Shown here: positions 12,931 through 21,705 of the stretch, piece after piece
Layout: each line of letters starts with the position of its first letter
Position numbering within the stretch: position 1 is the stretch's first letter
DNA from: a virus
Lineage: Duplodnaviria; Heunggongvirae; Uroviricota; Caudoviricetes
Virus record (IMG/VR): IMGVR_UViG_3300042564_004235
DNA: 64,000 nt
Direction: 5' to 3' (one strand)
Notes under the pieces: model-generated
What the model saw: the letters and a program-made list of their open reading frames with translations, nothing else
What the model was told of the DNA's origin: nothing
Databases searched by the model: none
Program-made: the position numbers and the translations under genes

Positions 12931-13003
12931 GGTTCCTTAGTATAGTTTGGTAATATCCCGGCTTTGTAACCCGGAGTCATCAGTTCGAACCTGATAGGAA
13001 CCT
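12931..13003 (+). tRNA. tRNA-Thr (TGT)
   Basis: Acceptor GGTTCCT/AGGAACC is perfect. D-arm GTAT-agtttggta-ATAT. Anticodon arm CCGGC-tTTGTaa-CCCGG has one C:C mismatch. T-arm ATCAG-TTCGAAC-CTGAT. Confidence 0.55.
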
Positions 13004-13043
13004 CAAAAAAAGAAAAAGTTCTTTGACATATTGGCTTCATAAT

Positions 13044-13115
13044 TCTCCCCTCGTCTAATTGGCAGGACACCTGGTTTTGGACCAGAGAATCAAGGTTCGA
13101 GACCTTGGGGGAGAT
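13044..13115 (+). tRNA. tRNA-Gln (TTG)
   Basis: Acceptor TCTCCCC/GGGGAGA, D-arm GTCT..GGAC, anticodon loop ttTTGga, T-arm CAAGG-TTCGAGA-CCTTG. Preceded by gttctttgacata. Confidence 0.6.
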
Positions 13116-13211
13116 CAATAAGGAAGATGAATCACAGCGGCCTGTGACCCCGTCTTGAAAACGGGCGGTACCGAAAGGTATTGGGATCGACACCTACTTC
13201 TTCCTCTATAA

Positions 13212-13286
13212 CGGGATGTGGACTAATTGGTAAGTCGCCACTTTTGGGAAGTGGACATCATCCAGGTTCGAGTCCTGGTATCCCGA
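13212..13286 (+). tRNA. tRNA-Pro (TGG)
   Basis: Acceptor CGGGATG/TATCCCG, D-arm GACT-aattggta-AGTC, anticodon arm CCACT-ttTGGga-AGTGG, T-arm CCAGG-TTCGAGT-CCTGG. Confidence 0.7.
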
Positions 13287-13344
13287 CTAATAATAAACAA
13301 ATAAAAATAAGTGTTATGGAAAGTGACAAGTATGACAAACAGAA

Positions 13345-13419
13345 GATCTCGTAGCTCAGTTGGTTTAGAGCACTCCACTTTTAATGGAGGGGTCGTGAGT
13401 TCGAGCCTCACCGGGATCA
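13345..13419 (+). tRNA. tRNA-Lys (TTT)
   Basis: Acceptor GATCTCG/CGGGATC, D-arm GCTC..GAGC, anticodon arm CTCCA-ctTTTaa-TGGAG, T-arm GTGAG-TTCGAGC-CTCAC. Confidence 0.75.
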
Positions 13420-13424
13420 CAAAA

Positions 13425-13460
13425 AAATTTGGTAGATTAAAAAAAAGTATTATCTTTGTA
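13425..13460 (+). promoter_or_regulatory. Bacteroidetes-type promoter (TTTG at -33, tatcTTTG at -7)
   Basis: aaaaaaatttggtagattaaaaaaaagtattatctttgta immediately before ATG 13463. Near-identical module at 18585-18625 and 19835-19872. Confidence 0.5.
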
Positions 13461-13462
13461 AT

Positions 13463-13678
13463 ATGAAAACAGTAAAAGAAATTAAGAAAGGACTACCAAA
13501 AGGAATGGTTAAAGTTGGTGAAGAATGTGAAAGAGCTATTGTACGATTAATAAAACAAGGACAAACTCAAGAACAAGCAACAAACACCGTTCTAAGACTT
13601 TTGAATGATAGTAAACCTTATTTAGAACAAGGAATGTACTCTACCACAATTGAAAGTATTAAAATGATAACATCATAA
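13463..13678 (+). CDS. hypothetical small protein inside the tRNA island
   Basis: 71-aa ORF with promoter module directly upstream. Confidence 0.45.
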   Translation: MKTVKEIKKGLPKGMVKVGEECERAIVRLIKQGQTQEQATNTVLRLLNDSKPYLEQGMYSTTIESIKMITS

Positions 13679-13681
13679 AAC

Positions 13682-13755
13682 ACACTCTTAGCTCAGATGG
13701 TAGTAGCGGTAGTATTACAAACTACAGGTCACAGGTTCGACCCCTGTAGGGTGTA
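13682..13755 (+). tRNA. tRNA-Val (TAC)
   Basis: Acceptor ACACTCT/AGGGTGT (one G:U), anticodon arm GTAGT-atTACaa-ACTAC perfect, T-arm ACAGG-TTCGACC-CCTGT. Confidence 0.7.
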
Positions 13756-13765
13756 CAAAAAATAA

Positions 13766-13851
13766 GGGAGAGTTGAGCAATTGGTTGGCTCAGCAGACTG
13801 TAAATCTGTCGTCGTGAGACCTTGGGGGTTCGAGTCCCTCCTCTCCCACCA
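13766..13851 (+). tRNA. tRNA-Tyr (GTA), type II, encoded CCA
   Basis: Acceptor GGGAGAG/CTCTCCC, anticodon loop ctGTAaa, 15-nt variable arm, T-arm GGGGG-TTCGAGT-CCCTC, 3' ACCA encoded. Confidence 0.75.
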
Positions 13852-13855
13852 CAAT

Positions 13856-13928
13856 GGACAAGTAGCTCAATTGGTAGAGCAATCGGCTGTTAACCGATAG
13901 GTTACAGGATCGTACCCTGTCTTGTCCG
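13856..13928 (+). tRNA. tRNA-Asn (GTT)
   Basis: Acceptor GGACAAG/CTTGTCC perfect, D-arm GCTC-aattggta-GAGC, anticodon arm ATCGG-ctGTTaa-CCGAT, T-loop ATCGTAC. Confidence 0.75.
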
Positions 13929-14004
13929 CAACCACCGAGAAGTGACTGACGAGTCCGCTGACGAGCTGAGGGGGTGGTTAAGAAATACCCCTAAATACGT
14001 ACCA

Positions 14005-14077
14005 GCTCACGTAGCTCAATTGGTAGAGCGCCGATCTGATACGTCGGAGGTAATGGGATCGTAACCCGTCGTGAACA
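14005..14077 (+). tRNA. tRNA-Ile (GAT)
   Basis: Acceptor GCTCACG/CGTGAAC (one C:A mismatch), canonical D-arm, anticodon arm CCGAT-ctGATac-GTCGG. Confidence 0.6.
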
Positions 14078-14135
14078 CAAAAAGGGGAATAACTAGTGTG
14101 GGTGCCCCAACTACTGCAGGAGTACCACACTCTAC

Positions 14136-14221
14136 GGAAGATAAACCTTGATGGCGATAGGGTCCGCCTGCTAAGCGAGATGTACCCGTAAGGGTGTTTG
14201 GTTCGATTCCAATGTCTTCCG
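14136..14221 (+). tRNA. tRNA-Ser (GCT), type II
   Basis: Acceptor GGAAGAT/GTCTTCC, anticodon arm TCCGC-ctGCTaa-GCGAG, long variable arm tgtACCCgtaaGGGTg, T-loop TTCGATT. Confidence 0.55.
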
Positions 14222-14226
14222 CAAAT

Positions 14227-14296
14227 GCCGATAGGAGAGGTTTCCGGTCCGGGCTCATATCCTGGATGTCATTGGGTTCGATACCCTTTATCGGTA
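14227..14296 (+). tRNA. tRNA-like, probable CAT anticodon (Met/Ile2), degenerate
   Basis: Acceptor GCCGATA/TATCGGT and anticodon arm CCGGG-ctCATat-CCTGG fold. D-arm and T-stem are weak (T-stem 3 GC pairs plus two U:U). Only 70 nt. Confidence 0.35.
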
Positions 14297-14302
14297 CTAT
14301 AT

Positions 14303-14376
14303 GGTGTATGTAGCTCAGTTGGTAGAGTGTCGTTCTGTGAAAGCGGAGGTCGTGGGATCGTGACCCATCATACACA
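14303..14376 (+). tRNA. tRNA-His (GTG) with G-1
   Basis: Extra 5' G before the perfect acceptor GTGTATG/CATACAC. Canonical D-arm. Anticodon arm TCGTT-ctGTGaa-AGCGG (2 G:U). Confidence 0.75.
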
Positions 14377-14382
14377 CAACAT

Positions 14383-14454
14383 ACCTTCGTAGCTTAATGG
14401 AAAAGCCTTAGAATACGAATCTAATGATTGGGAGTTCGACCCTCTCCGAAGGTA
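14383..14454 (+). tRNA. tRNA-Arg (ACG)
   Basis: Acceptor ACCTTCG/CGAAGGT perfect, D-stem GCTT/AAGC, anticodon arm TTAGA-atACGaa-TCTAA perfect, T-arm GGGAG-TTCGACC-CTCTC. Confidence 0.75.
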
Positions 14455-14457
14455 CAA

Positions 14458-14632
14458 AAGATGATAAGAAGCGTAGAATGACAGACGTGGAGAGACGTGT
14501 CGCAAGGGTACAAACTAAGGAAAGGTATTCAATCTTAATTGTATTGATGTAATAACCCAACTCTCTAATGGTGTGTGAAGCTTTGATAGAAGTAGCGGGA
14601 TTCCTGATAAAGTCATTCATCATCTTTTATTC
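14458..14632 (+). ncRNA. candidate structured RNA element in tRNA island
   Basis: About 175 nt non-coding between two tRNAs. Closed by an inverted repeat aaagatgat ... atcatcttt and ending in a T-run. No ORF. Confidence 0.2.
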
Positions 14633-14704: not shown

Positions 14705-14742
14705 CGGATCCGATGTCGGTCCCGAGCTAGGTCGGGCAATTT

Positions 14743-14879: not shown

Positions 14880-15314
14880 ATGACTTTAAAAATTTCTAAC
14901 ATACAAAAACAAAAATTTTATGATTTAGGACATAAATTACCAAAATGTATAAATCCTGGATGCAATAACAATGTTGCTGTAAGAAATTGGTCCAATTGGT
15001 CTTTTAAATCTGAATGTCCACGTTGCCAAAAGGCAAGAAAGAAGGGTGTTGTTATTGAGGGTATCACTATACATAAAAAAAAATATTGTGAAAATATAGA
15101 CGGTCATTTAGGTTTTATGTGTCCTGTTCCTAGTATAGAAAATTGGAAAGGGTTTGAGGTTGGATGTTTAGATTTAGATCACATAGATGGAGACCACAAT
15201 AACAATTCAGTAGAAAATGTTAAAACTTATTGTAAATTGTGTCACAATAGAAAAAGTATTGAGAGCGGTGACTGCTCTAATAAAAAAGATTCGGCAAGAA
15301 CATTTAACACATGA
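14880..15314 (+). CDS. HNH endonuclease
   Basis: Zn-ribbon Cys pairs CINPGC...CPRC. HNH core GCLDLDHIDGDHNNNSVENVKTYCKLCHNRK. Stop overlaps the start of the MTase gene in ATGA. Confidence 0.7.
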   Translation: MTLKISNIQKQKFYDLGHKLPKCINPGCNNNVAVRNWSNWSFKSECPRCQKARKKGVVIEGITIHKKKYCENIDGHLGFMCPVPSIENWKGFEVGCLDLDHIDGDHNNNSVENVKTYCKLCHNRKSIESGDCSNKKDSARTFNT

Positions 15315-16096
15315 AACAAAAAATTATATGTAAAGATTGTCTTTTAGGTATTAAAGACATTAAAAATGAAACAATACACTTAACTTGGACATCACCACCA
15401 TACTTTAATGCAAAATCTTATAGTACATGGGAAACATATGATGATTATTTATCGTTTCTTAAAGAAGTGTTTTCTGAAGTGTTTAGAGTAACTAAAGAAG
15501 GTAGAATGTGTGTTGTTAATTTATCTCCGGTAATAATACCTAGAGAAAATAGGAATTGTGAGAGTAAAAGATTACCAATACCCTTTGATTTTTTTCCAAT
15601 AATGAAAGAAATTGGTTGGAAATATTTAGATGATATTGTGTGGGTAAAACCTGAAGGAGCGGCAATAAATAGAAATGGAGGGTTTTACCAACATAGAAAA
15701 CCAGTTGCATATAAACCAAATTTAGTGTCTGAAGTAATATTTGTTTTTCAAAAACCGGCAAGTTTTCTTATAGATAAAGTTGTTAGATCTTATAAAGGTG
15801 AAATTTTAGAAAAATCACTGGTTAATGAAACTTATGAGAGGAGTAATGTTTGGACGATAAACCCCGAAACTAAATCAAAACATTTAGCACCATACCCTGA
15901 AGAGTTATCAGATAAAATTATAAAATATTATTCTTTTGTTGGTGATATTGTTTTAGATCCATTTTTAGGTTCGGGAACAACATTATTATCTTGTGAAAAA
16001 TTAGATAGGTTAGGTATTGGGTTTGATATACATGAGGAATACTGTGAAATGTGTACTGATAGAATTAATGATTGGGTTAATAAACATAAAAAATAA
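15311..16096 (+). CDS. DNA methyltransferase (beta-class N4C/N6A), second copy
   Basis: Motif IV LTWTSPPYFNA and motif I VLDPFLGSGTTLLSCEKLDRLGIGFDIHEEY. Confidence 0.85.
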   Translation: MKQKIICKDCLLGIKDIKNETIHLTWTSPPYFNAKSYSTWETYDDYLSFLKEVFSEVFRVTKEGRMCVVNLSPVIIPRENRNCESKRLPIPFDFFPIMKEIGWKYLDDIVWVKPEGAAINRNGGFYQHRKPVAYKPNLVSEVIFVFQKPASFLIDKVVRSYKGEILEKSLVNETYERSNVWTINPETKSKHLAPYPEELSDKIIKYYSFVGDIVLDPFLGSGTTLLSCEKLDRLGIGFDIHEEYCEMCTDRINDWVNKHKK

Positions 16097-16172
16097 GGAA
16101 CTATGGTGTAAGTATGGTGTGTCACGCTGGTCTGAAAAACCAGAGGTTGCGGTTCGACTCCGCATGGTTCCA
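16097..16172 (+). tRNA. tRNA-Phe (GAA)
   Basis: Acceptor GGAACTA/TGGTTCC, anticodon arm CTGGT-ctGAAaa-ACCAG perfect, T-arm TGCGG-TTCGACT-CCGCA. D-region is unusually long, with a direct 7-nt duplication atggtgt. Confidence 0.6.
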
Positions 16173-16188
16173 CAAAAAAATAGAAATA

Positions 16189-16644
16189 ATGAACAGAGTA
16201 TTTAGAACGGTTAACGGTGAAACAATTCCTGATGTGGTAAAACATACCTTAGATGTTCTAAAAGAATGTCCATGGGTGGAAGTACACATCGGTACAGACT
16301 CACAAAACCACAGAAGAAGTACCGTGTATGTTACGGTAATAGCTTATAGGTATGGGAATCGTGGTGTCCACTACATACTACATAAACAGAAAGTGAAAAA
16401 AATTAAAGACAAATGGACACGTCTTTGGAATGAGGCCGATTATTCAATTGAGGTTGCGGAATGGTTAACCAAAAAAGTAAAGGTACAAGTTGAGATTGAC
16501 TTAGATTATAATAGTCAAGAAAAACATTTCAGTTCAAAATTGGTTCAACCTGTTGTTGGGTGGGCAACATCTTTGGGGTATAAAACAAACATTAAACCCG
16601 ACAACCAAATTGCAACAAAAGCGGCAGATCACCACTGCCGTTAA
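16189..16644 (+). CDS. hypothetical protein
   Basis: Track ORF 16114.. runs through tRNA-Phe; first plausible ATG is 16189 (MNRVFRTVNGE). Contains a HIGTDSQ motif of unknown significance. Confidence 0.45.
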   Translation: MNRVFRTVNGETIPDVVKHTLDVLKECPWVEVHIGTDSQNHRRSTVYVTVIAYRYGNRGVHYILHKQKVKKIKDKWTRLWNEADYSIEVAEWLTKKVKVQVEIDLDYNSQEKHFSSKLVQPVVGWATSLGYKTNIKPDNQIATKAADHHCR

Positions 16645-16649: not shown

Positions 16650-16721
16650 GCTCAGGTGTCTGATAGGTAAAGTCCCGGTCTGCAAAACCGTGGTATGTGG
16701 GTTCAAATCCCTCCCTGAGCT
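16650..16721 (+). tRNA. tRNA-Cys (GCA)
   Basis: Acceptor GCTCAGG/CCTGAGC perfect, anticodon arm CCGGT-ctGCAaa-ACCGT, T-arm GTGGG-TTCAAAT-CCCTC. D-arm irregular. Confidence 0.6.
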
Positions 16722-16730
16722 CAAAAACAG

Positions 16731-16811
16731 GCCTTCGTGGTGGAACGGTAGACACATCCGGCTTAGACCCGGATTCCGAAAGGAGTGAGAGTTCGAGTCT
16801 CTCCGGAGGTA
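16731..16811 (+). tRNA. tRNA-Leu (TAG), type II
   Basis: Acceptor GCCTTCG/CGGAGGT, anticodon arm TCCGG-ctTAGac-CCGGA perfect, 13-nt variable arm, T-arm GAGAG-TTCGAGT-CTCTC. Confidence 0.75.
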
Positions 16812-16851
16812 CAAATCTTTATTATCAACATATTTATATTAAAATGTTGAT

Positions 16852-18468: not shown

Positions 18469-18481
18469 TGATGAATAAAAT

Positions 18482-18565
18482 GGTTCGGTGGTGGAATTGG
18501 TATACACGACAGGTTTAAGCCCTGTTGCCCTTTGAGGCTTGTGGGTTCGAGTCCCACTCGGACTA
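18482..18565 (+). tRNA. tRNA-Leu (TAA), type II
   Basis: Acceptor GGTTCGG/TCGGACT (3 G:U), D-stem GTG/CAC, anticodon arm ACAGG-ttTAAgc-CCTGT perfect, 15-nt variable arm, T-arm GTGGG-TTCGAGT-CCCAC. Confidence 0.6.
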
Positions 18566-18584
18566 CAGAAAAAAAGTTTAAAAA

Positions 18585-18625: not shown

Positions 18626-18759
18626 AAATAAGGAAAAAAGGTTCTTTGAAATATTAAAAATATGTGGTTGTAAGAAACGGGAAACTCGTAAAGTGCATTA
18701 ACCTGTTGACTCAAGATGGTGAAACGAGAGTTTGAGTCAACTACTAAACTACAAATTAT

Positions 18760-18833
18760 GGTGCGGTAGCTCAGTTGGTAGAGCAAGGAGACGGAAACCT
18801 CCTGTGCCGATGGTTCGATTCCATTCCCACACC
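18760..18833 (+). tRNA. non-canonical tRNA-like (8-nt anticodon loop), possible pseudogene
   Basis: Canonical D-arm GCTC-agttggta-GAGC and T-arm GATGG-TTCGATT-CCATT. The only stable anticodon helix AGGAG/CTCCT leaves an 8-nt loop acggaaac. Acceptor GGTGCGG/CCACACC has a C:A mismatch and needs one extra nt after the T-stem. Confidence 0.35.
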
Positions 18834-18842
18834 ACAAACATA

Positions 18843-18925
18843 GCGGGATAGTCAGTAGTTGGTAGCTAGCGAGGCTCATAACCTTGTGTCGAAAGGCCCC
18901 GGTGGTTCGAGTCCACCTCCCGCAA
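18843..18925 (+). tRNA. tRNA-like, CAT-anticodon hairpin, irregular
   Basis: Clean T-arm GGTGG-TTCGAGT-CCACC and hairpin CGAGG-ctCATaa-CCTTG. D-region and a 14-nt stretch before the T-arm do not fit a standard cloverleaf. Confidence 0.3.
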
Positions 18926-18928
18926 CAA

Positions 18929-19007
18929 GTGTTGTTCCCTTGAGAAAGGAATGTAGGAGTAACAAATATAGACGTTAACAACACCGAGGAACTCAACCTC
19001 AAATTTG
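18929..19007. repeat. repeat A (structured element, copy 1 of 2)
   Basis: gtgttgttcccttgagaaaggaa ... aacaacac ... caacctcaaattt. The 8-bp helix GTGTTGTT/AACAACAC is preserved in copy B at 20255-20357 despite different internal length. Confidence 0.5.
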
Positions 19008-19087
19008 CTGATGTACCAGTGGACGCTTATATCGTCCATACCTGTAGCGGTAAGTTGAAAACGTTGGTTCGAATCCAACCGTCAGTA
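19007..19087 (+). ncRNA. tRNA-like fragment (acceptor plus perfect T-arm; internal arms unresolved)
   Basis: Acceptor GCTGATG/CGTCAGT (2 G:U) and T-arm GTTGG-TTCGAAT-CCAAC. Internal hairpin GGACG-cttatat-CGTCC, but no D-arm can be placed. Confidence 0.25.
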
Positions 19088-19303
19088 CGGGAGTGTAGAC
19101 AGTAGAGTTCTGTCAGAGAGAAGAGGGTGACACGCACTTAAAATAGGGGTCACAAGGCATCTGACCGTTTAGTAGTTTTGGGCGATAAAAACTAACGTTT
19201 TGTGGAGATAGTTTAACGTATAAACTTACACCCGTGTTGTTAGTAGGTTTGATCACCCCATTCACGTTAAGTGACGAAACTACCCAAGGAGTAGTCACAC
19301 TTC

Positions 19304-19375
19304 GCAGGTATCGTATAACGGTTATTACTTCTGACTTCCAATCAGAAGATCTCGGTTCGATTCCGGGTACCTGCT
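19304..19375 (+). tRNA. tRNA-Gly (TCC)
   Basis: Acceptor GCAGGTA/TACCTGC perfect, D-arm GTAT-aacggtta-TTAC, anticodon arm TCTGA-ctTCCaa-TCAGA perfect, T-arm CTCGG-TTCGATT-CCGGG. Confidence 0.75.
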
Positions 19376-19544
19376 CAAATAAACCTTACAGAAGTCCGAA
19401 TAGCGCGGATGAAAGGAACCTTGGCTCTCATAGGATCGCAACCTTTACGGAGAGTTTGAATGTCCCAAGGTACTCTGTAATGGACCCTGCTCTGATGTGC
19501 ACGTCAACAGGTGATGGGGAACAAACCATCGATCAAATCCAAAC

Positions 19545-19577: not shown

Positions 19578-19744
19578 TGGGCCTGATGCCGACGGCAGGT
19601 CGACTGATTTGCAATCAGATCGTTTGGGTTCGATTCCCACAGTGTCCACGAAGACCGGAGTAATTAACCGAGTCCTAACAAGAAGATGGGTCATATATCA
19701 CAGTGTAGTTTGGTACCAATAATTCCTGTCTGTCCTCTTGAATA

Positions 19745-19817
19745 ACTACTTATGGTGTAAATGGAGAGCACGTCGGCACCTAGCCGGAAGATGTAGGTTC
19801 GAGTCCTATGGGTAGTT
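19745..19817 (+). tRNA. tRNA-like, possible Arg(CCT) with A33, irregular D-arm
   Basis: 73 nt. Acceptor ACTACTT/GGGTAGT (2 G:U), T-arm GTAGG-TTCGAGT-CCTAT, anticodon hairpin GTCGG-caCCTag-CCGGA. Position 33 is A rather than U. Confidence 0.3.
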
Positions 19818-19834
19818 CAAAAAAAGTTTAAAAA

Positions 19835-19872: not shown

Positions 19873-19880
19873 GAGTTAAA

Positions 19881-19954
19881 CGCCCGTTGGACAAGCGGTT
19901 TAAGTCGTCTCCCTTTCACGGAGAAGATCATGGGTTCGATTCCCATACGGGTGA
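19881..19954 (+). tRNA. tRNA-Glu (TTC)
   Basis: Acceptor CGCCCGT/ACGGGTG, anticodon arm TCTCC-ctTTCac-GGAGA perfect, T-arm ATGGG-TTCGATT-CCCAT. Confidence 0.75.
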
Positions 19955-20016
19955 CAATAGGACGAACAACGCGACCGCAGGAGTTGTACCTTTATGGTTT
20001 TGTAATGTGGTTTTTT

Positions 20017-20088
20017 GGTCCATTGGTGTAACGGCTAACATATATCCCTGTCACGGATATGCTTCGGGTTCGATTCCCGGATGGACCG
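20017..20088 (+). tRNA. tRNA-Asp (GTC)
   Basis: Acceptor GGTCCAT/ATGGACC perfect, anticodon arm TATCC-ctGTCac-GGATA perfect, T-arm TCGGG-TTCGATT-CCCGG. Confidence 0.75.
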
Positions 20089-20108
20089 CACAAAGTGTTC
20101 TTTGAAAA

Positions 20109-20250
20109 TATTGATAGTGGACGCCTCTACTTATGTTGTCGACGAACTAGGTAGGTCAAGGATAGTCATCACCCTTCTGCCGGTGCACCCTAAAACTCGG
20201 GCAAGCAGTTAAGATTGGAGCGAGACCGGGTACTCCATCACTATCAATAA
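20109..20250 (+). ncRNA. candidate structured RNA element closed by a long-range helix
   Basis: tattgatagtgga ... tccatcactatcaata terminal inverted repeat around ~140 nt of GC-rich non-coding sequence. Confidence 0.2.
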
Positions 20251-20254
20251 TATT

Positions 20255-20357
20255 GTGTTGTTCCCTTGAGAAAGGAAATATAAAGATGAGTGACATTACT
20301 TGAATTATGGAAAACATAATCGTACACTACAACACAGAGGATTTCAACCTCAAATTT
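20255..20357. repeat. repeat B (structured element, copy 2 of 2)
   Basis: Shares gtgttgttcccttgagaaaggaa, the closing helix partner acaacac and caacctcaaattt with copy A. Lies directly upstream of the nuclease-like gene. Confidence 0.5.
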
Positions 20358-20494
20358 GGTAAATGTAATTAGGAGGTAAAAGTGAAATTCTTACCTTAAT
20401 TAGTGTAGGTGTATCAGCAACCTAATTACATTACCTTTATAATCAGGTAACACCTTTGTCCTGTATTGTGATATTTATTAATAAACTAAATATT

Positions 20495-20881
20495 ATGAAA
20501 ACACAAGGTGATAATGCTGAACTTAAATTTATGTTATTCAGTTATGAATTAGGATATATAATATCAAAACCATTTGGGGATAATAGTAAGTATGATTTAA
20601 TAATTGATAACGGAGATTCTTTAGAAAGAATACAAATAAAATCAACAAGTAGAAAAGACACTTCATCCGGAATGGATTGTTATAGTTGTTCTGTTTGCTC
20701 AGGGTCAAAATTGAAAAAAAAATATAACGAAAAAGATGTTGACTTTATTGTTATTTATGTGATACCTGAAAATACTTGGTATAAAATACCAACAAAAGAA
20801 ATAAAAGGAAAGACAGTAAAATTATACCCCCATAGGAAATCACAAAGAAACACCTATGAAAAGTATAGAATCTTGTCCTGA
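20495..20881 (+). CDS. PD-(D/E)xK-like nuclease with Zn-ribbon insert (tentative)
   Basis: First ATG in good context is 20495 (MKTQGDNAELKF). Pattern E..(20)..YDLIID..(8)..ERIQIKS resembles D...(D/E)xK cores. CYSCSVCSG Cys cluster. Confidence 0.35.
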   Translation: MKTQGDNAELKFMLFSYELGYIISKPFGDNSKYDLIIDNGDSLERIQIKSTSRKDTSSGMDCYSCSVCSGSKLKKKYNEKDVDFIVIYVIPENTWYKIPTKEIKGKTVKLYPHRKSQRNTYEKYRILS

Positions 20882-20934
20882 CTACGTGGGAAAGATTCAT
20901 CCCGAAATTAGAACATGGATCACAAACACGTAAA

Positions 20935-21007
20935 CCTAAGTACCCATACCGCTGACGGTGGGCTAAGTAAGATACAATTTCGTACCGCGGGAAGTAGAAT
21001 GCTTAGG
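20935..21007. repeat. tRNA-sized structured element C (paralog of D)
   Basis: 73 nt closed by CCTAAGT/GCTTAGG. Shares gggctaagt.a.atacaatt and gggagtagaatgctt with D. Confidence 0.45.
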
Positions 21008-21108
21008 AGCGTGTTTTTAAATTATAAAAAATTATGACACCATTATTGTTTTTAATATTTATTTTATTTATCTTTGGGGTAAGAAAAAGAAGATAAGTTT
21101 TTGATAAA

Positions 21109-21184
21109 CTCAAGTACCTGTACAGCGGTGAGTAACGGGCTAAGTTATATACAATTCCTCGGAGCTGGGAGTAGAATGCTTGAG
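21109..21184. repeat. tRNA-sized structured element D (paralog of C)
   Basis: 76 nt closed by CTCAAGT/GCTTGAG, a compensatory double change relative to C that keeps the terminal helix. Confidence 0.45.
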
Positions 21185-21195
21185 AGTCAAAGGTT

Positions 21196-21311
21196 GGTCA
21201 GGAGCGTAATGAGGCACGGTGCCGAGTCCTAAAAGTACCACGGTCCATAAGCAATTGGACGCGAGAAACTATAAAGGTTGCTCATTGTGGGTTCGAATCC
21301 CACCCTGACAT
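21196..21311 (+). ncRNA. 116-nt tRNA-like element with internal insertion
   Basis: Acceptor GGTCAGG/CCTGACA (one mismatch at 1:72) and perfect T-arm GTGGG-TTCGAAT-CCCAC. About 45 nt of excess internal sequence with hairpins GGCA-cgg-TGCC and GTCC..GGAC. Confidence 0.3.
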
Positions 21312-21476
21312 CACCGGTTACTTGATTCCTGGTAGTAGAGTAACAACCATTGGGGAATTCGGGATGTCCCGCGAATGGTGGTGTAAGATAAGAGAAACTT
21401 ACAACGGTAGAGTACCATAAACAAAAGAAACAAGACGTAGAGGTGACTCTGCGTTGGCGCAAATCTCTACCAACTT

Positions 21477-21568
21477 AGTCAGGTTGGTACAAGGTCGGTT
21501 CGAGTCCGATGGAAGGTCATGGATGTCGGGTAGCTCCCTGTAGAGAGGTTCGATTCCTCTCCTGACTA
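21477..21568 (+). ncRNA. 92-nt tRNA-like element (possible type II; internal Ser(CGA)-like hairpin)
   Basis: Perfect acceptor AGTCAGG/CCTGACT and T-arm AGAGG-TTCGATT-CCTCT. Internal hairpin GTCGG-ttCGAgt-CCGAT. Arms cannot be placed unambiguously. Confidence 0.3.
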
Positions 21569-21607
21569 CACTTGACATTATTAAATTAATGTCTTATTAT
21601 TATACAA

Positions 21608-21680
21608 AACCGGGTAGCTCAGCTGGTAGAGCAATCCTTTTTAAACAGGACGTGTCATTGGTTCAATCCCTTTCCCGGTT
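21608..21680 (+). tRNA. degenerate tRNA-like (perfect acceptor and D-arm, weak anticodon and T stems)
   Basis: Acceptor AACCGGG/CCCGGTT, canonical TA-GCTC-agctggta-GAGC. Anticodon region only pairs as TCCT/AGGA with an 8-nt loop ttttaaac. T-stem ATTGG/CCTTT is poor. Followed by a T-run. Confidence 0.35.
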
Positions 21681-21705
21681 TTTTTATTTATAAAATTAAA
21701 ATATT

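What the first reader, a model, noticed from the sequence alone, without database searches (positions are those of the whole stretch)
12931..21683. Large tRNA island with at least 23 canonical tRNAs plus several non-canonical tRNA-like genes
Manual cloverleaf folding recovers Thr, Gln, Pro, Lys, Val, Tyr, Asn, Ile, Ser, His, Arg(ACG), Arg(TCT) x2 (one at 9131), Trp, Phe, Cys, Leu(TAG), Leu(TAA), Gly, Glu, Asp and a CAT-type.

Interleaved are elements that have perfect acceptor stems and T-arms but abnormal bodies:
- two with 8-nt anticodon loops (18760-18833, 21608-21680)
- one 116-nt element with ~45 nt internal insertion (21196-21311)
- one 92-nt element with a Ser(CGA)-like internal hairpin (21477-21568)
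- one Arg(CCT)-like element with A33 (19745-19817)
- one anticodon-arm-less mini-tRNA at 10621-10680

These may be pseudogenes, intron or insertion-bearing tRNAs, or functional tRNA mimics. The 8-nt-loop species could in principle be +1 frameshift or quadruplet decoders.
Basis: seen in the sequence. Interest (0 to 1): 0.6.

Follow-up and report, generated by a model that had tools for sequence, protein, structure and literature searches.

The report
Phage tRNA island with tRNA-framed RNAs
A freshwater phage carries a tRNA set for all 20 amino acids, interleaved with conserved but structurally abnormal tRNAs and tRNA-shaped RNAs that have no working anticodon; two of these resemble a large group of phage RNAs that I did not find in Rfam 15 or in my literature searches.

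Summary
ARAGORN and Rfam agree on 20 canonical tRNAs, all on the + strand.

The irregular elements are not decaying pseudogenes. All have homologues in other uncultured viral contigs. Seven of the nine (E1, E3, E4, E5, E6, E8, E9) show compensatory or selectively conserved stems.

- **Likely working decoders:** two (8/4)-type tRNA-Ser, a D-arm-less tRNA-Ile(UAU), a compact tRNA-Ala(UGC) with G3·U70, and two CAU tRNAs. These complete a set for all 20 amino acids that matches the phage's A-ending codons.
- **8-nt loops:** two tRNA-Phe-like genes keep 8-nt anticodon loops (ACGGAAAN, TTTTAAAC) while their stems change.
- **Non-decoders:** four elements (10621, 19745, 21196, 21477) keep only the acceptor stem and T-arm.
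- **Wider group:** 21477 shares both frames with at least 129 phage elements that have a tRNA-Leu-type top half and a hypervariable middle. A PD-(D/E)XK homing endonuclease inserts into them.

The tRNA(-like) genes abut other conserved structured RNAs exactly. This suggests tRNA-punctuated processing of an RNA operon, which is inferred and not shown.

No intron, recoding or +1 frameshift site was found. The role of the 8-nt loops is unresolved.

The parts
9131..9203 (+). tRNA-Arg(UCU), an outlying canonical copy
   Evidence: ARAGORN; RF00005 53.7 bits
10621..10681 (+). E9: mini tRNA-like element. It has an acceptor stem, a D-arm and a T-arm, but a 10-nt linker in place of the anticodon arm. 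It lies 29 nt upstream of the ORF at 10710.
   Evidence: RF00005 43.8 bits. The MFE fold gives exactly these three helices. The L095:3277-3337 homologue has a different acceptor-stem sequence that still pairs.
12931..13116 (+). tRNA-Thr(UGU) 12931-13004 and tRNA-Gln(UUG) 13044-13116, with a boxA-like GTTCTTTGA at 13018 between them
13122..13206 (+). tRNA-Ser(UGA) with an (8/4) architecture: 8-bp acceptor stem and 4-bp T-stem
   Evidence: ARAGORN -ps80 drawing; conserved in L080 and L132; (8/4) tRNA-Ser is reported in phages (PMC5389517)
13212..14078 (+). Canonical tRNAs: Pro(UGG) 13212-13287, Lys(UUU) 13345-13420, Val(UAC) 13682-13756, Tyr(GUA) 13766-13851, Asn(GUU) 13856-13929, Ile(GAU) 14005-14078
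14136..14222 (+). tRNA-Ser(GCU) with an (8/4) architecture
   Evidence: ARAGORN -ps80; the Rfam tRNA-Sec model gives 33.2 bits, which fits an 8-bp acceptor; conserved in L004, L132 and L046
14226..14297 (+). CAU-anticodon tRNA (Met or Ile2 type) with an irregular D-arm
   Evidence: ARAGORN -ps80; 96-97% identical copies in L132 and L004
14304..14815 (+). Canonical tRNAs: His(GUG) 14304-14377, Arg(ACG) 14383-14455, Arg(UCU) 14633-14705, Trp(CCA) 14743-14815
14880..16644 (+). Protein genes inside the island: HNH-endonuclease-like ORF 14880-15314, DNA methylase 15311-16096, RNaseH-like ORF 16189-16644. tRNA-Phe(GAA) 16097-16173 lies between the last two.
   Evidence: PHROGs HNH families E 3e-6; Pfam N6_N4_Mtase E 5e-42; Pfam RNaseH_like E 9e-26; tRNA-Phe
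16650..16812 (+). tRNA-Cys(GCA) 16650-16722 and tRNA-Leu(UAG) 16731-16812
18482..18566 (+). tRNA-Leu(UAA), preceded by a boxA-like motif at 18452
18640..18758 (+). R1: conserved structured RNA that ends 1 nt before E1. It begins with a boxA-like GTTCTTTGA and follows a Bacteroidota-type promoter at 18588-18619.
   Evidence: Six homologues with a consensus fold; promoter and boxA scans; no Rfam hit
18760..18835 (+). E1: tRNA-Phe-like gene with the 8-nt anticodon loop ACGGAAAC and an extra unpaired C between the T-stem and the acceptor stem
   Evidence: RF00005 32.2 bits. Eight distinct sequences come from 13 contigs. The anticodon stem is 100% paired, and 3 of its 5 pairs change on both sides. 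L029 holds a 7-nt-loop GAA relative.
18842..18926 (+). E2: CAU tRNA with a 1:72 mismatch and a long (about 14-nt) variable arm
   Evidence: ARAGORN. The long arm is kept in L132, L266 and L029. Canonical short-arm relatives occur in L268, L009 and L086.
18927..19006 (+). X1: conserved structured RNA (motif X) that exactly fills the gap between E2 and E3
   Evidence: Homologues in L080, L056 and L118; a second copy at 20253-20366
19007..19088 (+). E3: tRNA-Ile(UAU) without a D-arm. Only 7 nt separate the acceptor stem from the anticodon stem, and a 25-nt region containing GG precedes the T-arm.
   Evidence: Six distinct sequences, 100% of cells paired, with compensatory changes at pairs 12:37 and 18:28. 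L001 has the canonical orthologue. AUA makes up 36% of Ile codons.
19089..19303 (+). V: conserved 215-nt structured RNA that exactly fills the gap between E3 and tRNA-Gly
   Evidence: Homologues in L001, L254, L132 and L114; alifold -37.8 kcal/mol; no Rfam hit
19304..19376 (+). tRNA-Gly(UCC)
19476..19537 (+). freshwater-1 RNA (RF02979), followed by a hairpin and T-run at about 19540-19578
   Evidence: 85.2 bits against a gathering score of 72; also present in L001; sequence read
19579..19650 (+). E4: compact tRNA-Ala(UGC). Its acceptor stem is 7 bp with a bulged U and includes G3·U70, and the discriminator is A73. The D-arm has a 3-nt loop. The anticodon stem is 7 bp with a bulged A.
   Evidence: ARAGORN -ps80; fold. 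In three distinct sequences, four of the seven variable columns form the two compensatory pairs 23:44 and 24:43, and the UGC anticodon is kept. GCA makes up 46% of Ala codons.
19745..19818 (+). E5: tRNA-like element ('Arg CCU' with A33). Only the acceptor stem and T-arm are conserved.
   Evidence: ARAGORN; RF00005 28.2 bits. L269:6382-6457 keeps the acceptor stem and T-arm but has a different anticodon loop, ACATAGT.
19881..20089 (+). tRNA-Glu(UUC) 19881-19955 and tRNA-Asp(GUC) 20017-20089, downstream of the promoter at 19838-19869
20096..20366 (+). W (20096-20252) and X2 (20253-20366): two conserved structured RNAs that start 7 nt after tRNA-Asp. W begins with a boxA-like motif.
   Evidence: Homologues and consensus folds. 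In L256, L073 and L132, motif X is followed within 2-4 nt by an AGTCAGG element.
20495..20885 (+). PD-(D/E)XK homing-endonuclease ORF. The ATG is at 20495 and the ORF ends at 20881. Its end overlaps TTGTCCTGACTAC (20873-20885), a copy of the 3' frame of the tRNA-like group.
   Evidence: Pfam PF11645 E 2e-24; PDB 2OST E 3e-7. All four copies (window, L010, L011, L012) end in this frame. L095 has an intact element at this position and no ORF.
20928..21192 (+). Y1 (20928-21020) and Y2 (21100-21192): tandem copies of a conserved structured RNA. Y2 ends 3 nt before E6.
   Evidence: Nine homologues. The outer stem covaries through five sequence versions (CCTAAG/CTTAGG, CTTCGG/CCGAAG, CTCAAG/CTTGAG, CTTTAG/CTAAAG, CTTCAG/CTGAAG). 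No Rfam hit.
21196..21312 (+). E6: 116-nt tRNA-framed RNA. Its acceptor stem is (G)GTCAGG/CCTGAC(A). It has a D-arm-like 5' part and a T-arm, and a roughly 50-nt irregular hairpin replaces the anticodon domain.
   Evidence: Homologues in L258, L256, L047, L257, L095, L254 and L125. Nine of the 28 predicted pairs are kept through changes on both sides. Fold z-score -2.2. No RF00005 hit.
21313..21476 (+). Z: conserved 164-nt structured RNA that exactly fills the gap between E6 and E7
   Evidence: Homologues in L253, L256, L258, L080 and L047; alifold -42.9 kcal/mol. In L047 and L080 it also follows an AGTCAGG element.
21477..21569 (+). E7: 92-nt tRNA-framed RNA with AGTCAGG...CCTGACT plus A73. 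It has no Leu-type D-arm, and its insert holds a second T-arm-like hairpin.
   Evidence: 92-98% identical copies in L065, L117, L023 and L110. Its 3' end matches the 22-nt 3' frame of the group with 2 mismatches, where 0 matches are expected by chance. No RF00005 hit.
21607..21682 (+). E8: tRNA-Phe-like gene with the 8-nt loop TTTTAAAC. A T-run follows it, and it lies 24 nt upstream of the ORF at 21706.
   Evidence: RF00005 42.1 bits. Found in eight viral contigs. The divergent L259 copy has different acceptor and anticodon stems but the same loop.

Best explanation
This is the RNA-gene island of a large, AT-rich freshwater phage that probably infects Bacteroidota.

**Shown**
- The island holds 20 canonical tRNAs.
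- It also holds six non-standard but conserved tRNAs: two (8/4)-type Ser, a D-arm-less Ile-UAU, a compact Ala-UGC with G3·U70, and two CAU tRNAs.
- Together these give at least one tRNA for each of the 20 amino acids. Their U34 anticodons match the phage's dominant A-ending codons.
- There are two tRNA-Phe-derived genes whose 8-nt anticodon loops are kept while their stems change.
- Four elements (E5, E6, E7, E9) conserve only the acceptor stem and T-arm, the 'top half' of a tRNA. Their anticodon domain is missing, replaced or unconserved.
- E7 shares both acceptor strands and the 3' frame with at least 129 distinct elements in viral contigs. Those elements have the form AGTCAGG, a tRNA-Leu-type D-arm, an insert of 22-131 nt (one outlier of 228 nt) that falls into 103 sequence clusters, then ACAGGTTCGAATCCTGT-CCTGACT-A. 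E6 shares only a GTCAGG/CCTGAC acceptor.
- A PD-(D/E)XK homing endonuclease sits in the 3' frame of such elements.
- tRNA and tRNA-like genes abut other conserved structured RNAs (R1, X, V, W, Y, Z) to within 0-7 nt.

**Inferred**
- Several Bacteroidota-type promoters with boxA-like leaders transcribe the island as polycistronic RNA.
- RNase P and RNase Z (or 3' exonucleases) cut at every tRNA-shaped top half. This releases the decoders and also the interleaved RNAs, as in mitochondrial tRNA punctuation.
- The top-half elements therefore act as processing handles and as stabilising scaffolds for whatever replaces the anticodon domain.
- Homing endonucleases, and recombination between the shared frames, shuffle these cassettes among phages.

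**Open**
- What the 8-nt-loop genes do.
- What the cargo inserts do.
For: **tRNA set and codon match**
- ARAGORN and Rfam calls.
- Codon usage: AUA 36% of Ile, GCA 46% of Ala, AGA 72% of Arg, UUA 56% of Leu; the standard genetic code is used.

**Conservation and covariation**
- E1: 3 of 5 anticodon-stem pairs change on both sides, 100% paired, across 8 distinct sequences.
- E3: 100% paired with 2 compensatory pairs; the canonical orthologue is in L001.
- E4: four of the seven variable columns form two compensatory stem pairs. Its acceptor stem has G3·U70 and A73, the bacterial Ala identity set (PMC9976931).
- E6: 9 of 28 pairs are kept through changes on both sides.
- E8: the same loop occurs in the divergent L259 body.
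- E9 and E5: the frames are conserved while the middle is absent or different.

**(8/4) Ser**
- ARAGORN drawings, plus the report of (8/4) tRNA-Ser in phages (PMC5389517).

**The wider group**
They yield 129 unique elements, 116 with discriminator A, and 103 insert clusters.
- ARAGORN calls only 28 of them, and the 'anticodons' are scattered and often begin with A.
- The 5' frame matches annotated tRNA-Leu genes of cultured phages.
- The largest insert cluster shows covarying T-stems and insert stems.

**Homing endonuclease**
-. L095 has an uninterrupted element where the window has the ORF.

**Punctuation**
- Exact abutment of modules in the window and in relatives.
- All tRNAs near group members lie on the same strand.
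- Promoter-like sites: 14 found against 4.8 expected. boxA-like sites: 6 found against 1.2 expected, clustered in the island.
- GOLLD and ROOL RNAs are known to sit near tRNAs, possibly co-transcribed (PMC5737381).

**Cassette shuffling**
- L095 goes straight from E6 to E8, whereas the window has Z and E7 in between. The junction lies in the shared 3' frame.
Against: - No transcript data are available. Transcription, processing, CCA addition and charging are all inferred.
- Covariation rests on few, closely related sequences (3-9 per element). Some compensatory changes are single evolutionary events. The shuffle control of the counting tool can be exceeded by relatedness alone.
- The apparent invariance of the group's frames is partly built in, because the loci were fetched with an exact 17-mer of the 5' frame.
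- Only 57 of 129 group elements have another tRNA within 1 kb. About 29% sit 12-40 nt upstream of an ORF. Punctuation of RNA operons therefore cannot be their only context.
- Inserts on their own fold only slightly better than shuffles (median z -0.7). They show no excess antisense matches to their own loci. A cargo function is thus unproven.
- E7 lacks the Leu-type D-arm that defines the group, and E6 shares only the GTCAGG/CCTGAC acceptor.
- The E7 fold is not better than shuffles (z -0.5).
Confidence: 0.55

Rival explanations
1. The irregular elements are decaying tRNA pseudogenes. They would be debris from duplication and endonuclease-driven rearrangement in the island, with no function of their own.
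For: - Three homing-endonuclease-type ORFs lie in or near tRNA genes: HNH at 14880, PD-(D/E)XK at 20495, and a GIY-YIG-like ORF in L001.
- A degenerate copy of a frame lies just upstream of the endonuclease ORF, at about 20438-20468.
- The anticodon loop of E5 is not conserved.
- The E7 fold has a z-score of only -0.5.
Against: - Every element recurs in several other contigs. Seven of the nine keep their stems through compensatory changes, or keep only selected stems.
- The 8-nt loops persist while the stems are replaced.
- E3 and E4 fill the only gaps in the decoding set (UAU and UGC) for codons the phage uses heavily.
Confidence: 0.1
2. The long forms (21196, 21477 and the AGTCAGG group) are intron-containing tRNA genes. 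Splicing would restore a normal tRNA.
For: - ARAGORN with the intron option calls both of them.
- The associated endonuclease belongs to the family of I-Ssp6803I, which (from memory) is encoded in a group I intron of a cyanobacterial tRNA-fMet gene.
Against: - There is no Rfam group I intron hit at E<=5 in 8500-23000.
- At 22-131 nt, the inserts are far too short for group I or group II introns.
- No conserved anticodon arm remains on either side of the insert. ARAGORN's anticodons for 28 of 129 members are scattered and often begin with A.
- The shortest inserts (22 nt) are shorter than a class II anticodon arm plus variable arm.
- The endonuclease ORF is free-standing in the T-loop/3' frame and does not sit inside a ribozyme.
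Confidence: 0.03
3. The two 8-nt-loop genes are quadruplet decoders, that is, +1 frameshift tRNAs. Both derive from tRNA-Phe. They would read UUCC (E1, anticodon GGAA) and UUAA (E8, anticodon UUAA), either to express frameshifted phage products or to disturb host translation.
For: - Both bodies resemble tRNA-Phe, and both keep A35 and A36 with one extra base on the wobble side.
- The loops are conserved while the stems covary.
- E8 fits the NU-NNNN-AN format used by engineered quadruplet tRNAs (format recalled from memory).
Against: - E1 has C33, and its L130 relative has A33, in place of the universal U33.
- E8 has U73 and a weak T-stem with two U·U pairs.
- No +1 junction at TTCC, TTAA or TTCG was found in the 64-kb window.
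- TTAA would occur very often in frame in a genome with 31.6% G+C (for the G+C figure).
- The known natural tRNAs with enlarged loops, including ones in a phage, are not known to frameshift (PMC5009743). The yeast mt-tRNA-Thr with an 8-nt loop reads triplets (PMC7609411).
Confidence: 0.2
4. The abnormal anticodon regions exist to evade or absorb host tRNA-targeting defences such as anticodon nucleases and other tRNA-modifying toxins. The altered loops would resist cleavage, and the top-half mimics would act as decoys.
For: - The window encodes an RNA ligase (53902-55035; Pfam RNA_ligase E 3e-13) and a calcineurin-like phosphoesterase (43623-44327). From memory, T4 uses a comparable enzyme set to repair tRNA cut by an anticodon nuclease.
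- The variation is concentrated in the anticodon domain, while the frames stay fixed.
Against: - No defence system or nuclease target is known for this host.
- Decoys would not need inserts of 22-131 nt, or conserved structured inserts such as those in E6.
- There is no direct evidence.
Confidence: 0.2
5. The conserved frames matter mainly at the DNA level. They would be homing-endonuclease targets and recombination 'landing pads' that let cassettes move between co-infecting phages. Any RNA produced would be incidental.
For: - All four endonuclease copies sit in the 3' frame.
- L095 and the window differ by a cassette whose junction lies in the shared frame.
- The island is a mosaic of modules shared with many contigs.
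Against: - T-stems covary within the group (ACAGG/CCTGT, GCCCG/CGGGT, GTGGG/CCTAC, AGGGG/CCTCT). This points to selection on RNA pairing, not on a fixed DNA site.
- The endonuclease is present in only 3 of more than 130 loci that carry an element.
- D-loop GG and the T-loop consensus are retained.
Confidence: 0.15

Closest known systems
Phage T4 tRNA gene cluster, with its stable 'species 1 and 2' RNAs and the SegB homing endonuclease (T4 RNAs from memory; SegB as cited in PMC6582537)
   Same: A phage tRNA cluster transcribed as polycistrons and processed by host tRNA enzymes. It contains extra small stable RNAs of unknown function and a free-standing homing endonuclease that promotes inheritance of the tRNA region.
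   Different: - This island has many more genes (about 26 decoders against 8) and at least eight other structured RNAs.
- Its tRNA-like elements lack anticodon domains.
- The endonuclease here is PD-(D/E)XK, whereas SegB is GIY-YIG.
- No sequence relationship to T4 was tested.
Horizontally transferred tRNA arrays with GOLLD RNA and HNH endonuclease, as in mycobacteria (PMC6582537; Weinberg et al. 2017, PMC5737381)
   Same: A large tRNA cluster that includes tRNA-Ile(UAU). GOLLD RNA lies nearby (window 6302-6713, 318 bits). Homing-endonuclease genes sit inside the cluster, and co-transcription of the ncRNA with the tRNAs has been suggested.
   Different: The window also carries structurally abnormal decoders, top-half tRNA mimics and several uncatalogued RNA motifs. 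Here GOLLD lies 2.4 kb upstream of the first tRNA and is not inside the array.
(8/4) tRNA-Ser / allo-tRNAs (Mukai et al. 2017, PMC5389517)
   Same: Both Ser genes are drawn with an 8-bp acceptor stem and a 4-bp T-stem. The paper reports this architecture for tRNA-Ser in bacteriophages.
   Different: The architecture here comes only from ARAGORN drawings and a sub-threshold tRNA-Sec hit. No alignment with published allo-tRNAs was made.
Mitochondrial D-arm-less tRNAs and mitochondrial tRNA punctuation (PMC7609411; PMC5435911, from the listing only)
   Same: - E3 lacks a D-arm but keeps its acceptor stem, anticodon arm and T-arm.
- tRNA-shaped elements flank other RNAs exactly, as in the punctuation model.
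   Different: - E3 is in a phage of bacteria. The 2020 review of non-canonical tRNAs does not contain the word 'phage', and describes D-arm loss only in mitochondria.
- E3 has a long segment containing GG after the anticodon arm, whereas the mitochondrial forms have a short connector.
Natural and mutant tRNAs with 8-nt anticodon loops: suf frameshift suppressors, yeast mt-tRNA-Thr(UAG), and 'tRNAs in a phage' (PMC5009743, PMC7609411)
   Same: One extra nucleotide in the anticodon loop of an otherwise tRNA-like gene. Such genes have been noted before in a phage.
   Different: - Here two different loops are each conserved across contigs, and both derive from tRNA-Phe.
- E1 lacks U33.
- Decoding behaviour is unknown.
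Engineered 'tRNA scaffold' for recombinant RNA expression (Ponchon and Dardel; PMC3753655, from the listing plus memory)
   Same: An acceptor stem, D-arm and T-arm frame with the anticodon arm replaced by arbitrary cargo. Host tRNA enzymes then process and protect the RNA.
   Different: That system is synthetic. In the natural elements no cargo function is known, and many inserts are only weakly structured.
YrlA / bacterial Y RNAs (RF02553; PMC4201824)
   Same: Non-coding RNAs that contain a tRNA-like module.
   Different: Rfam YrlA scores only 21.8-27.4 bits against a gathering score of 69. From memory, the tRNA-like domain of YrlA is closed at the acceptor end and opens at the anticodon side, which is the opposite topology. 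Presence of a Ro60/Rsr gene in the window was not tested.
I-Ssp6803I, a PD-(D/E)XK homing endonuclease (PDB 2OST; Pfam PF11645)
   Same: The ORF at 20495-20881 matches PF11645 (E 2e-24) and 2OST (E 3e-7). Both endonucleases are associated with a tRNA(-like) gene.
   Different: From memory, I-Ssp6803I sits inside a group I intron in the anticodon loop. This ORF is free-standing in the T-loop/3' end of a tRNA-like gene, and no ribozyme was detected.

Membership tests
Canonical tRNA (Rfam RF00005 / cloverleaf) | Score at or above the RF00005 gathering score (29 bits) | tested here: inconclusive
   - Pass: E1 32.2, E8 42.1, E9 43.8 bits.
- Just below: E5 28.2 bits.
- Well below: E4 20.1 bits.
- No RF00005 hit at E<=5: E2 (matches only the tRNA-Sec model, 23.1 bits), E3, E6, E7.

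From.
Canonical tRNA (Rfam RF00005 / cloverleaf) | 7-nt anticodon loop with U33 and a conserved anticodon | tested here: not met
   - E1 and E8 have 8-nt loops.
- E5 has A33, and its loop is not conserved.
- E6, E7 and E9 have no anticodon arm.
- The feature is met by E2, E3 (CUUAUAU) and E4 (UUUGCAA).

From.
Canonical tRNA (Rfam RF00005 / cloverleaf) | D-arm present | tested here: not met
   - E3 has only 7 nt between the acceptor stem and the anticodon stem.
- E7 lacks a D-stem.
- A D-arm is present in E1, E2, E4 (3-nt loop), E6, E8 and E9.
(8/4) tRNA-Ser (Mukai et al. 2017) | 8-bp acceptor stem plus 4-bp T-stem, long variable arm, Ser anticodon | tested here: met
   ARAGORN drawings of 13122-13206 (UGA) and 14136-14222 (GCU) show 8 acceptor pairs (one a mismatch or G·U), 4 T-stem pairs and a long variable arm. 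The tRNA-Sec model gives 33.2 bits. This rests on secondary-structure prediction only.
AGTCAGG tRNA-Leu-framed element group (defined here) | Acceptor stem AGTCAGG/CCTGACT with discriminator A | tested here: met
   - E7 has exactly AGTCAGG...CCTGACT-A-C.
- E6 has (G)GTCAGG...CCTGAC-A, with position 1:72 mismatched.
AGTCAGG tRNA-Leu-framed element group (defined here) | 3' frame GGTTCGAATCCTGTCCTGACTA (T-loop, T-stem and acceptor strand) | tested here: met
   - E7 matches with 2 mismatches in 22 nt, where 0 matches are expected by chance. The mismatches are the T-stem bases compensated on the 5' side (AGAGG/CCTCT).
- E6 is not found within 3 mismatches.
AGTCAGG tRNA-Leu-framed element group (defined here) | tRNA-Leu-type D-arm TGGCGGAAT(T)GGTAGACGC | tested here: not met
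   No site in the window matches AGTCAGGTGGCGGAA within 3 mismatches, apart from one chance-level hit. E7 reads AGTCAGGTTGGTAC. E6 has an AGCGTAAT-type 5' part like the tRNA in L011. E6 and E7 are therefore allied types and not core members.
Group I intron-containing tRNA gene | Group I ribozyme core between two tRNA halves | tested here: not met
   There is no RF00028 hit at E<=5 in 8500-23000, the inserts are at most 131 nt, and the endonuclease ORF is not embedded in a recognisable ribozyme.
Quadruplet-decoding / +1 frameshift suppressor tRNA | 8-nt loop with U33, a four-base anticodon and a purine at position 37 | tested here: inconclusive
   - E8 (UU-UUAA-AC, or AU-UUAA-AC in its relatives) fits the format.
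- E1 (AC-GGAA-AC) and the L130 copy (AA-CGAA-AG) lack U33.

From.
Quadruplet-decoding / +1 frameshift suppressor tRNA | Cognate frameshift sites in genes, or demonstrated four-base reading | tested here: not met
   A scan of the window for in-frame TTCC, TTAA or TTCG followed by a long +1 frame gave three hits. All three are ordinary adjacent genes. Decoding itself cannot be tested with these tools.
PD-(D/E)XK homing endonuclease (PF11645, I-Ssp6803I-like) | Match to the family profile above the curated cut-off, and to the solved structure's sequence | tested here: met
   PF11645 86.4 bits against a cut-off of 26.1; 2OST_A E 3e-7. Catalytic residues and cleavage activity were not examined.
tmRNA / YrlA | Rfam gathering score | tested here: not met
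   tmRNA-family models give 11.7-19.7 bits against gathering scores of 47-84. YrlA gives 21.8-27.4 bits against 69.

The most novel reading that the evidence does not exclude
Freshwater Bacteroidota phages may use the tRNA 'top half' (acceptor stem, T-arm and elbow) as a general-purpose cassette.

- One large group, with a tRNA-Leu-type frame, A73 and a hypervariable middle, would be a natural counterpart of the engineered tRNA scaffold. It would deliver diverse small RNAs. Because LeuRS does not need the anticodon arm, these RNAs might even be leucylated.
- The same phages would tolerate or select radically remodelled yet functional decoders: a D-arm-less tRNA-Ile, a compact tRNA-Ala and 8-nt-loop tRNA-Phe derivatives. 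These would be the first such forms outside organelles.
- Homing endonucleases or host tRNA nucleases may drive this remodelling.
Probability: 0.3. Interest if true: 0.85.

Novelty: new variant of a known kind. Interest (0 to 1): 0.72.

Why it matters
- **Rules of tRNA architecture.** tRNA structure outside organelles is regarded as almost invariant. A conserved D-arm-less tRNA-Ile(UAU), a compact tRNA-Ala and two conserved 8-nt-loop tRNA-Phe derivatives in phages would extend those limits. They would also give tRNA biologists natural test cases for bacterial ribosomes, EF-Tu and the synthetases.
- **A candidate new RNA class.** The tRNA-Leu-framed elements with hypervariable inserts are numerous. 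They are absent from Rfam 15, from GenBank phages by the test run here, and from the literature searched.
- **How phages express non-coding RNAs.** If the top-half elements punctuate RNA operons, that would explain why GOLLD, ROOL, freshwater-1 and other orphan phage RNAs sit next to tRNAs. It would also give a direct route to mapping their mature ends.

Tried and rejected
- **Group I intron split by the endonuclease ORF.** The PF11645 hit and the repeated motifs X and Y suggested this. I rejected it because Rfam finds no intron. Motifs X and Y are independent, widely shared modules, and the ORF sits in the 3' frame of a tRNA-like element.
- **Stop-codon recoding.** An E8 'UUA' anticodon could in principle act as an ochre suppressor. 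I rejected this because the standard code gives normal genes with 40 TAA, 12 TGA and 4 TAG stops. Treating TAA as sense only merges neighbouring genes.
- **+1 frameshift junctions.** The three hits are ordinary adjacent genes.
- **Inserts as antisense RNAs against their own locus.** The longest complementary match averages 9.2 nt, the same as for shuffled inserts.
- **Inserts as strongly structured aptamers.** Median z-score is only -0.7.
- **GenBank phages.** No close relative of the island was found, and no record holds both frames.
- **Genome-collection scan.** The 15-mer was too short, so most hits were chance. Real elements occurred only on small contigs of MAGs: Sediminibacterium, Flavobacterium and two doubtful bins.
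- **A wasted scan.** One viral scan failed because of a spacing error in my pattern. I repeated it correctly.
- **Covariance model of the frames.** I did not build one. It would also hit ordinary tRNAs, and direct sequence comparison answered the membership question.

Full report
**1. What is there**

The window has 31.6% G+C. ARAGORN at default settings finds 23 tRNA genes, all on the + strand. Rfam RF00005 gives 22 hits at gathering score.

Twenty genes are canonical by both tools:
- Arg(UCU) at 9131
- Thr, Gln, Pro, Lys, Val, Tyr, Asn, Ile(GAU), His, Arg(ACG), Arg(UCU), Trp, Phe, Cys, Leu(UAG), Leu(UAA), Gly, Glu and Asp, between 12931 and 20089

Rfam also finds GOLLD RNA at 6302-6713 (318 bits) and freshwater-1 RNA at 19476-19537 (85 bits) inside the island.

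A lowered ARAGORN threshold and a permissive Rfam scan add these genes and elements:
- Ser(UGA) 13122-13206
- Ser(GCU) 14136-14222
- a CAU gene at 14226-14297
- the 8-nt-loop element at 18760-18835
- a UAU element at 19007-19088
- an Ala(UGC) element at 19579-19650
- the mini element at 10621-10681

Between 17964 and 21706 the only convincing ORF is a 128-aa PD-(D/E)XK endonuclease (ATG at 20495). It matches Pfam PF11645 at E 2e-24 and PDB 2OST at E 3e-7.

**2. Phage and host context**

Megablast against GenBank phages finds only scattered tRNA matches.

Sites of the form TTTG-N17-21-TAnnTTTG number 14 against 4.8 expected. Five lie in the island. From memory, this is the Bacteroidota sigma-A promoter consensus.

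GTTCTTTGA occurs 6 times against 1.2 expected. From memory, it resembles the boxA antitermination element of rRNA operons. Four copies sit at the start of tRNA or ncRNA runs, and one lies about 500 nt upstream of GOLLD.

Relatives are uncultured IMG/VR contigs. In the genome collection, true relatives of the tRNA-like group occur only on small contigs binned with Sediminibacterium and Flavobacterium MAGs, plus two doubtful bins.

The genes use the standard code: 40 TAA, 12 TGA and 4 TAG stops. Codons are strongly A/T-ending.

**3. The irregular elements are conserved, so they are not junk**

BLAST of each element against the fetched loci, and two pattern scans, gave homologues for all of them.

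*E1 (18760).*
- Eight distinct sequences come from 13 contigs.
- The anticodon stem takes five different sequence versions and is always 5 bp. Three of its 5 pairs change on both sides, and the stem is 100% paired.
- The loop is always 8 nt. The search pattern fixed ACGGAAA, but not the loop length or the stems.
- An L029 relative is a normal tRNA-Phe(GAA) with a 7-nt loop. An L130 relative has another 8-nt loop, AACGAAAG.

*E8 (21607).*
- Seven further contigs carry near-identical copies.
- L259 carries a divergent copy. Its acceptor and anticodon stems are entirely different (CTTGT/ACAAG), but the loop is again TTTTAAAC.

*E3 (19007).*
- There are six distinct sequences with 100% of cells paired.
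- Compensatory changes occur in the anticodon stem. They also occur in a 3-bp helix (CAG:CUG to CGG:CCG) that encloses the anticodon arm.
- The close relative L001 has a canonical tRNA-Ile(UAU) with the same acceptor stem and anticodon arm at this position. The alignment shows a 13-nt D-arm deletion and a 20-nt insertion before the T-arm in E3.

*E4 (19579).*
- In three distinct sequences, four of the seven variable columns form two compensatory pairs of a 7-bp anticodon stem, and UGC is kept.
- The fold gives a 7-bp acceptor stem with a bulged U and with G1:C, G2:C and G3·U, followed by A73.
- These include G3·U70 and A73, two of the listed bacterial alanine determinants (PMC9976931).

*E6 (21196).*
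- Nine of its 28 predicted pairs are kept through changes on both sides.
- The central hairpin is replaced by a different sequence of the same shape in the L095, L254 and L257 copies.

*E7 (21477).* Four other contigs carry copies that are 92-98% identical.

*E9 (10621).* The L095 copy has a different acceptor-stem sequence that still pairs.

*E5 (19745).* The L269 copy keeps the acceptor stem and T-arm but has a different anticodon loop. E5 is therefore not a conserved Arg(CCU) decoder.

**4. Which elements are probably decoders**

With Ser (two genes), a CAU gene, E3 (UAU) and E4 (UGC), the island covers all 20 amino acids. The U34 anticodons match the most used codons:

| Codon | Share of its amino acid |
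|---|---|
| AUA | 36% of Ile |
| GCA | 46% of Ala |
| UCA | 36% of Ser |
| AGA | 72% of Arg |
| UUA | 56% of Leu |
| AAA | 85% of Lys |

ARAGORN draws both Ser genes with an 8-bp acceptor stem and a 4-bp T-stem. Mukai et al. reported this (8/4) form for tRNA-Ser in phages (PMC5389517).

I found no report of D-arm loss outside mitochondria. The 2020 review of non-canonical tRNAs does not contain the word 'phage' (PMC7609411).

**5. A large group behind the two long elements**

While tracing the endonuclease I found that its homologues in L010-L012 lie next to elements that begin AGTCAGG-TGGCGGAAT(T)GGTAGACGC and end ACAGGTTCGAATCCTGT-CCTGACT-A.

These stretches contain 129 distinct elements:
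- They are 72-181 nt long (median 106), apart from one 278-nt detection that spans two tandem elements in L065.
- The discriminator is A in 116.
- The 3' acceptor strand is CCTGACT in 104.
- The inserts fall into 103 BLAST clusters.
- ARAGORN calls only 28, with scattered and often A-initial 'anticodons'. They are therefore not a decoding family.

The 5' frame matches annotated tRNA-Leu genes of cultured phages, but no GenBank phage has both frames.

In E. coli, leucine identity depends on A73 and not on the anticodon or the variable arm. The anticodon arm is dispensable for leucylation (PMC9976931). Charging of these RNAs is therefore conceivable, but it is only an inference.

In the largest insert cluster the T-stem covaries (ACAGG/CCTGT, GCCCG/CGGGT, GTGGG/CCTAC, AGGGG/CCTCT), and so do the insert stems. 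This argues for selection at the RNA level.

Caveat: the 5' frame was fixed by my search pattern. Its invariance, and that of its pairing partner, is therefore partly built in.

*Relation of E6 and E7 to this group.*
- E7 has the same acceptor stem, discriminator and 3' frame (2 mismatches in 22 nt, 0 expected). It lacks the Leu-type D-arm.
- E6 shares only GTCAGG/CCTGAC. Its 5' part is like that of the tRNA in L011.
- I therefore treat both as allied types and not as core members.

**6. Homing endonuclease and cassette shuffling**

All four copies of the PD-(D/E)XK ORF end in (T)CCTGTCCTGACTAC, which is the 3' frame. The three copies in L010-L012 also have an element 155-182 nt upstream.

L095 has an intact element where the window has the ORF.

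L095 passes directly from E6 to E8. The window has Z and E7 in between, and the junction lies in the shared frame.

The window also holds an HNH-like ORF inside the island. It has an I-TevI-like ORF next to thymidylate synthase. L001 has a GIY-YIG-like ORF directly upstream of its canonical tRNA-Ile.

Endonuclease genes inside horizontally moving tRNA arrays are known (PMC6582537).

**7. Punctuation**

The non-tRNA sequence of the island is not spacer. R1, X (two copies), V, W, Y (two copies) and Z all have homologues in several contigs and have consensus folds. The outer stem of Y covaries through five versions. None of them matches Rfam.

Their ends coincide with tRNA(-like) ends:
- X1 fills 18927-19006, between E2 and E3.
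- V fills 19089-19303, between E3 and tRNA-Gly.
- Z fills 21313-21476, between E6 and E7.
- Y2 ends 3 nt before E6.
- R1 ends 1 nt before E1.
- W starts 7 nt after tRNA-Asp.

In L256, L073 and L132, motif X is followed within 2-4 nt by an AGTCAGG element.

From established knowledge, RNase P and the 3'-processing enzymes recognise the acceptor/T-arm half of a tRNA. I infer that the tRNA-shaped elements serve as processing signals that release the neighbouring RNAs. This would also explain why only the top half is conserved in E5, E6, E7 and E9. None of this is shown.

The model cannot be the whole story:
- Only 57 of 129 group elements have another tRNA within 1 kb, although all of those are on the same strand.
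- 37 of 129 lie 4-40 nt upstream of an ORF, with a peak near 15 nt, against 100 of 645 random positions. E8 and E9 do the same in the window.

**8. The 8-nt loops**

Both genes look like tRNA-Phe derivatives with one extra base on the 5' side of an AA-ending anticodon.

For quadruplet reading (UUCC, UUAA):
- the format of the E8 loop
- the conservation of both loops

Against quadruplet reading:
- C33 or A33 in the E1 family
- U73 and a weak T-stem in E8
- no +1 junctions in the window
- literature stating that natural enlarged-loop tRNAs, including ones in a phage, are not known to frameshift (PMC5009743)
- an 8-nt-loop mitochondrial tRNA that reads triplets (PMC7609411)

E8 is followed by a run of 7-8 T in eight contigs and may also act at the end of the transcription unit.

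An RNA ligase gene at 53902-55035 keeps open a role in a conflict with tRNA nucleases.

**9. Verdict**

- The pseudogene and intron readings are not supported.
- 'Functional mimics' is supported by conservation.
- The quadruplet reading remains open.
- In outline the island is a known kind of thing: a phage tRNA array with homing endonucleases and nearby GOLLD RNA.
- It also carries a conserved D-arm-less decoder, a compact tRNA-Ala and two conserved 8-nt-loop genes.
- It further carries top-half tRNA mimics allied to a very large group that I did not find in Rfam 15, in GenBank phages by the test run, or in the literature searched. These features make it a new variant worth experimental follow-up.

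Noticed in passing
window 6302-6713 (+): Full-length GOLLD RNA (RF02032, 318 bits). It lies about 2.4 kb upstream of the first tRNA and about 500 nt downstream of a boxA-like GTTCTTTGA at 5800.
   Followed up: partly
window 19476-19578 (+); L001 4359-4420: freshwater-1 RNA (RF02979) inside the island, followed by a hairpin and T-run that looks like a terminator. The 100 nt upstream of it (19377-19475) are also conserved in L001, L064 and L023.
   Followed up: partly
window 20928-21020 and 21100-21192 (+); also L029, L047, L065, L080, L089, L108, L118, L255, L257, L258: Motif Y is an RNA of about 90 nt. Its outer stem covaries through five versions, and it has invariant stretches GGGCTAAGT..ATACAATT and GGGAGTAGAATGC. 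It has no Rfam match and often lies just upstream of tRNA-framed elements.
   Followed up: partly
window 18927-19006 and 20253-20366 (+); also L023, L056, L073, L080, L118, L132, L256, L258: Motif X has the form GTGTTGTTCCCTTGAGAAAGGAA...ACAACAC.GAGG..TCAACCTCAA. It may form a pseudoknot between the hairpin loop CTTGAG and the downstream CTCAA. It directly precedes tRNA(-like) genes and has no Rfam match.
   Followed up: partly
window 19089-19303 (V), 20096-20252 (W), 21313-21476 (Z), 18640-18758 (R1): Four further conserved, apparently structured RNAs of 119-215 nt, shared with several viral contigs. None is in Rfam 15.
   Followed up: partly
window 13018, 18452, 18641, 20097 and 5800 (+): A GTTCTTTGA(C/A)A motif, 6 copies against 1.2 expected, sits at the start of RNA-gene runs. 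It resembles rRNA-operon boxA antitermination sites, a resemblance recalled from memory and not tested.
   Followed up: partly
window 11690-11774, 11950-12034, 16845-16929 (+): Three ORFs (11697, 11957, 16852) share a conserved N-terminal segment of about 28 aa ([15 protein letters not shown]...) at 64-82% DNA identity. L001 has extra copies in a 1-kb insertion.
   Followed up: no
window 53902-55035 and 43623-44327 (+): An RNA ligase (Pfam RNA_ligase plus PHA02142 OB-fold) and a calcineurin-like phosphoesterase. Together they could form a tRNA-repair tool kit.
   Followed up: no
window 38878-40518 (+): Thymidylate synthase is followed directly by an ORF with I-TevI DNA-binding and NUMOD3 domains. 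This is another homing-endonuclease-type gene.
   Followed up: no
window 22771-24369 (+): A phage-encoded PAS-domain histidine-kinase-like protein (PAS plus HATPase_c) lies just downstream of the island.
   Followed up: no
L011 679-738: A Pistol ribozyme hit (RF02679, 37.6 bits against a gathering score of 34.5) on a viral contig that also carries the PD-(D/E)XK endonuclease next to a tRNA.
   Followed up: no
L006-L009 9318-9710: Distant relatives of the 370-aa island protein lie on large viral contigs (up to 226 kb) that encode a tmRNA (RF00023, 99 bits).
   Followed up: no
L053, L061, L062, L068, L089, L091, L119, L127, L130 (AGTCAGG elements): Some group members carry a second insertion, an extra hairpin inside the D-loop (for example GGCGGAAGGAGGATGGTGTCCATCCTCGTGGTAGACGC). 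Both variable sites of the frame therefore accept cargo.
   Followed up: no
AGTCAGG elements in L012, L079, L105, L107, L110, L122; window E8 and E9: About 29% of the elements end 4-40 nt (peak about 15 nt) upstream of an ATG-started ORF. The intervening leader is A-rich (CTAC-TAA.TTTAAAA...ATG). This suggests a role in the 5' UTR or in mRNA processing.
   Followed up: partly
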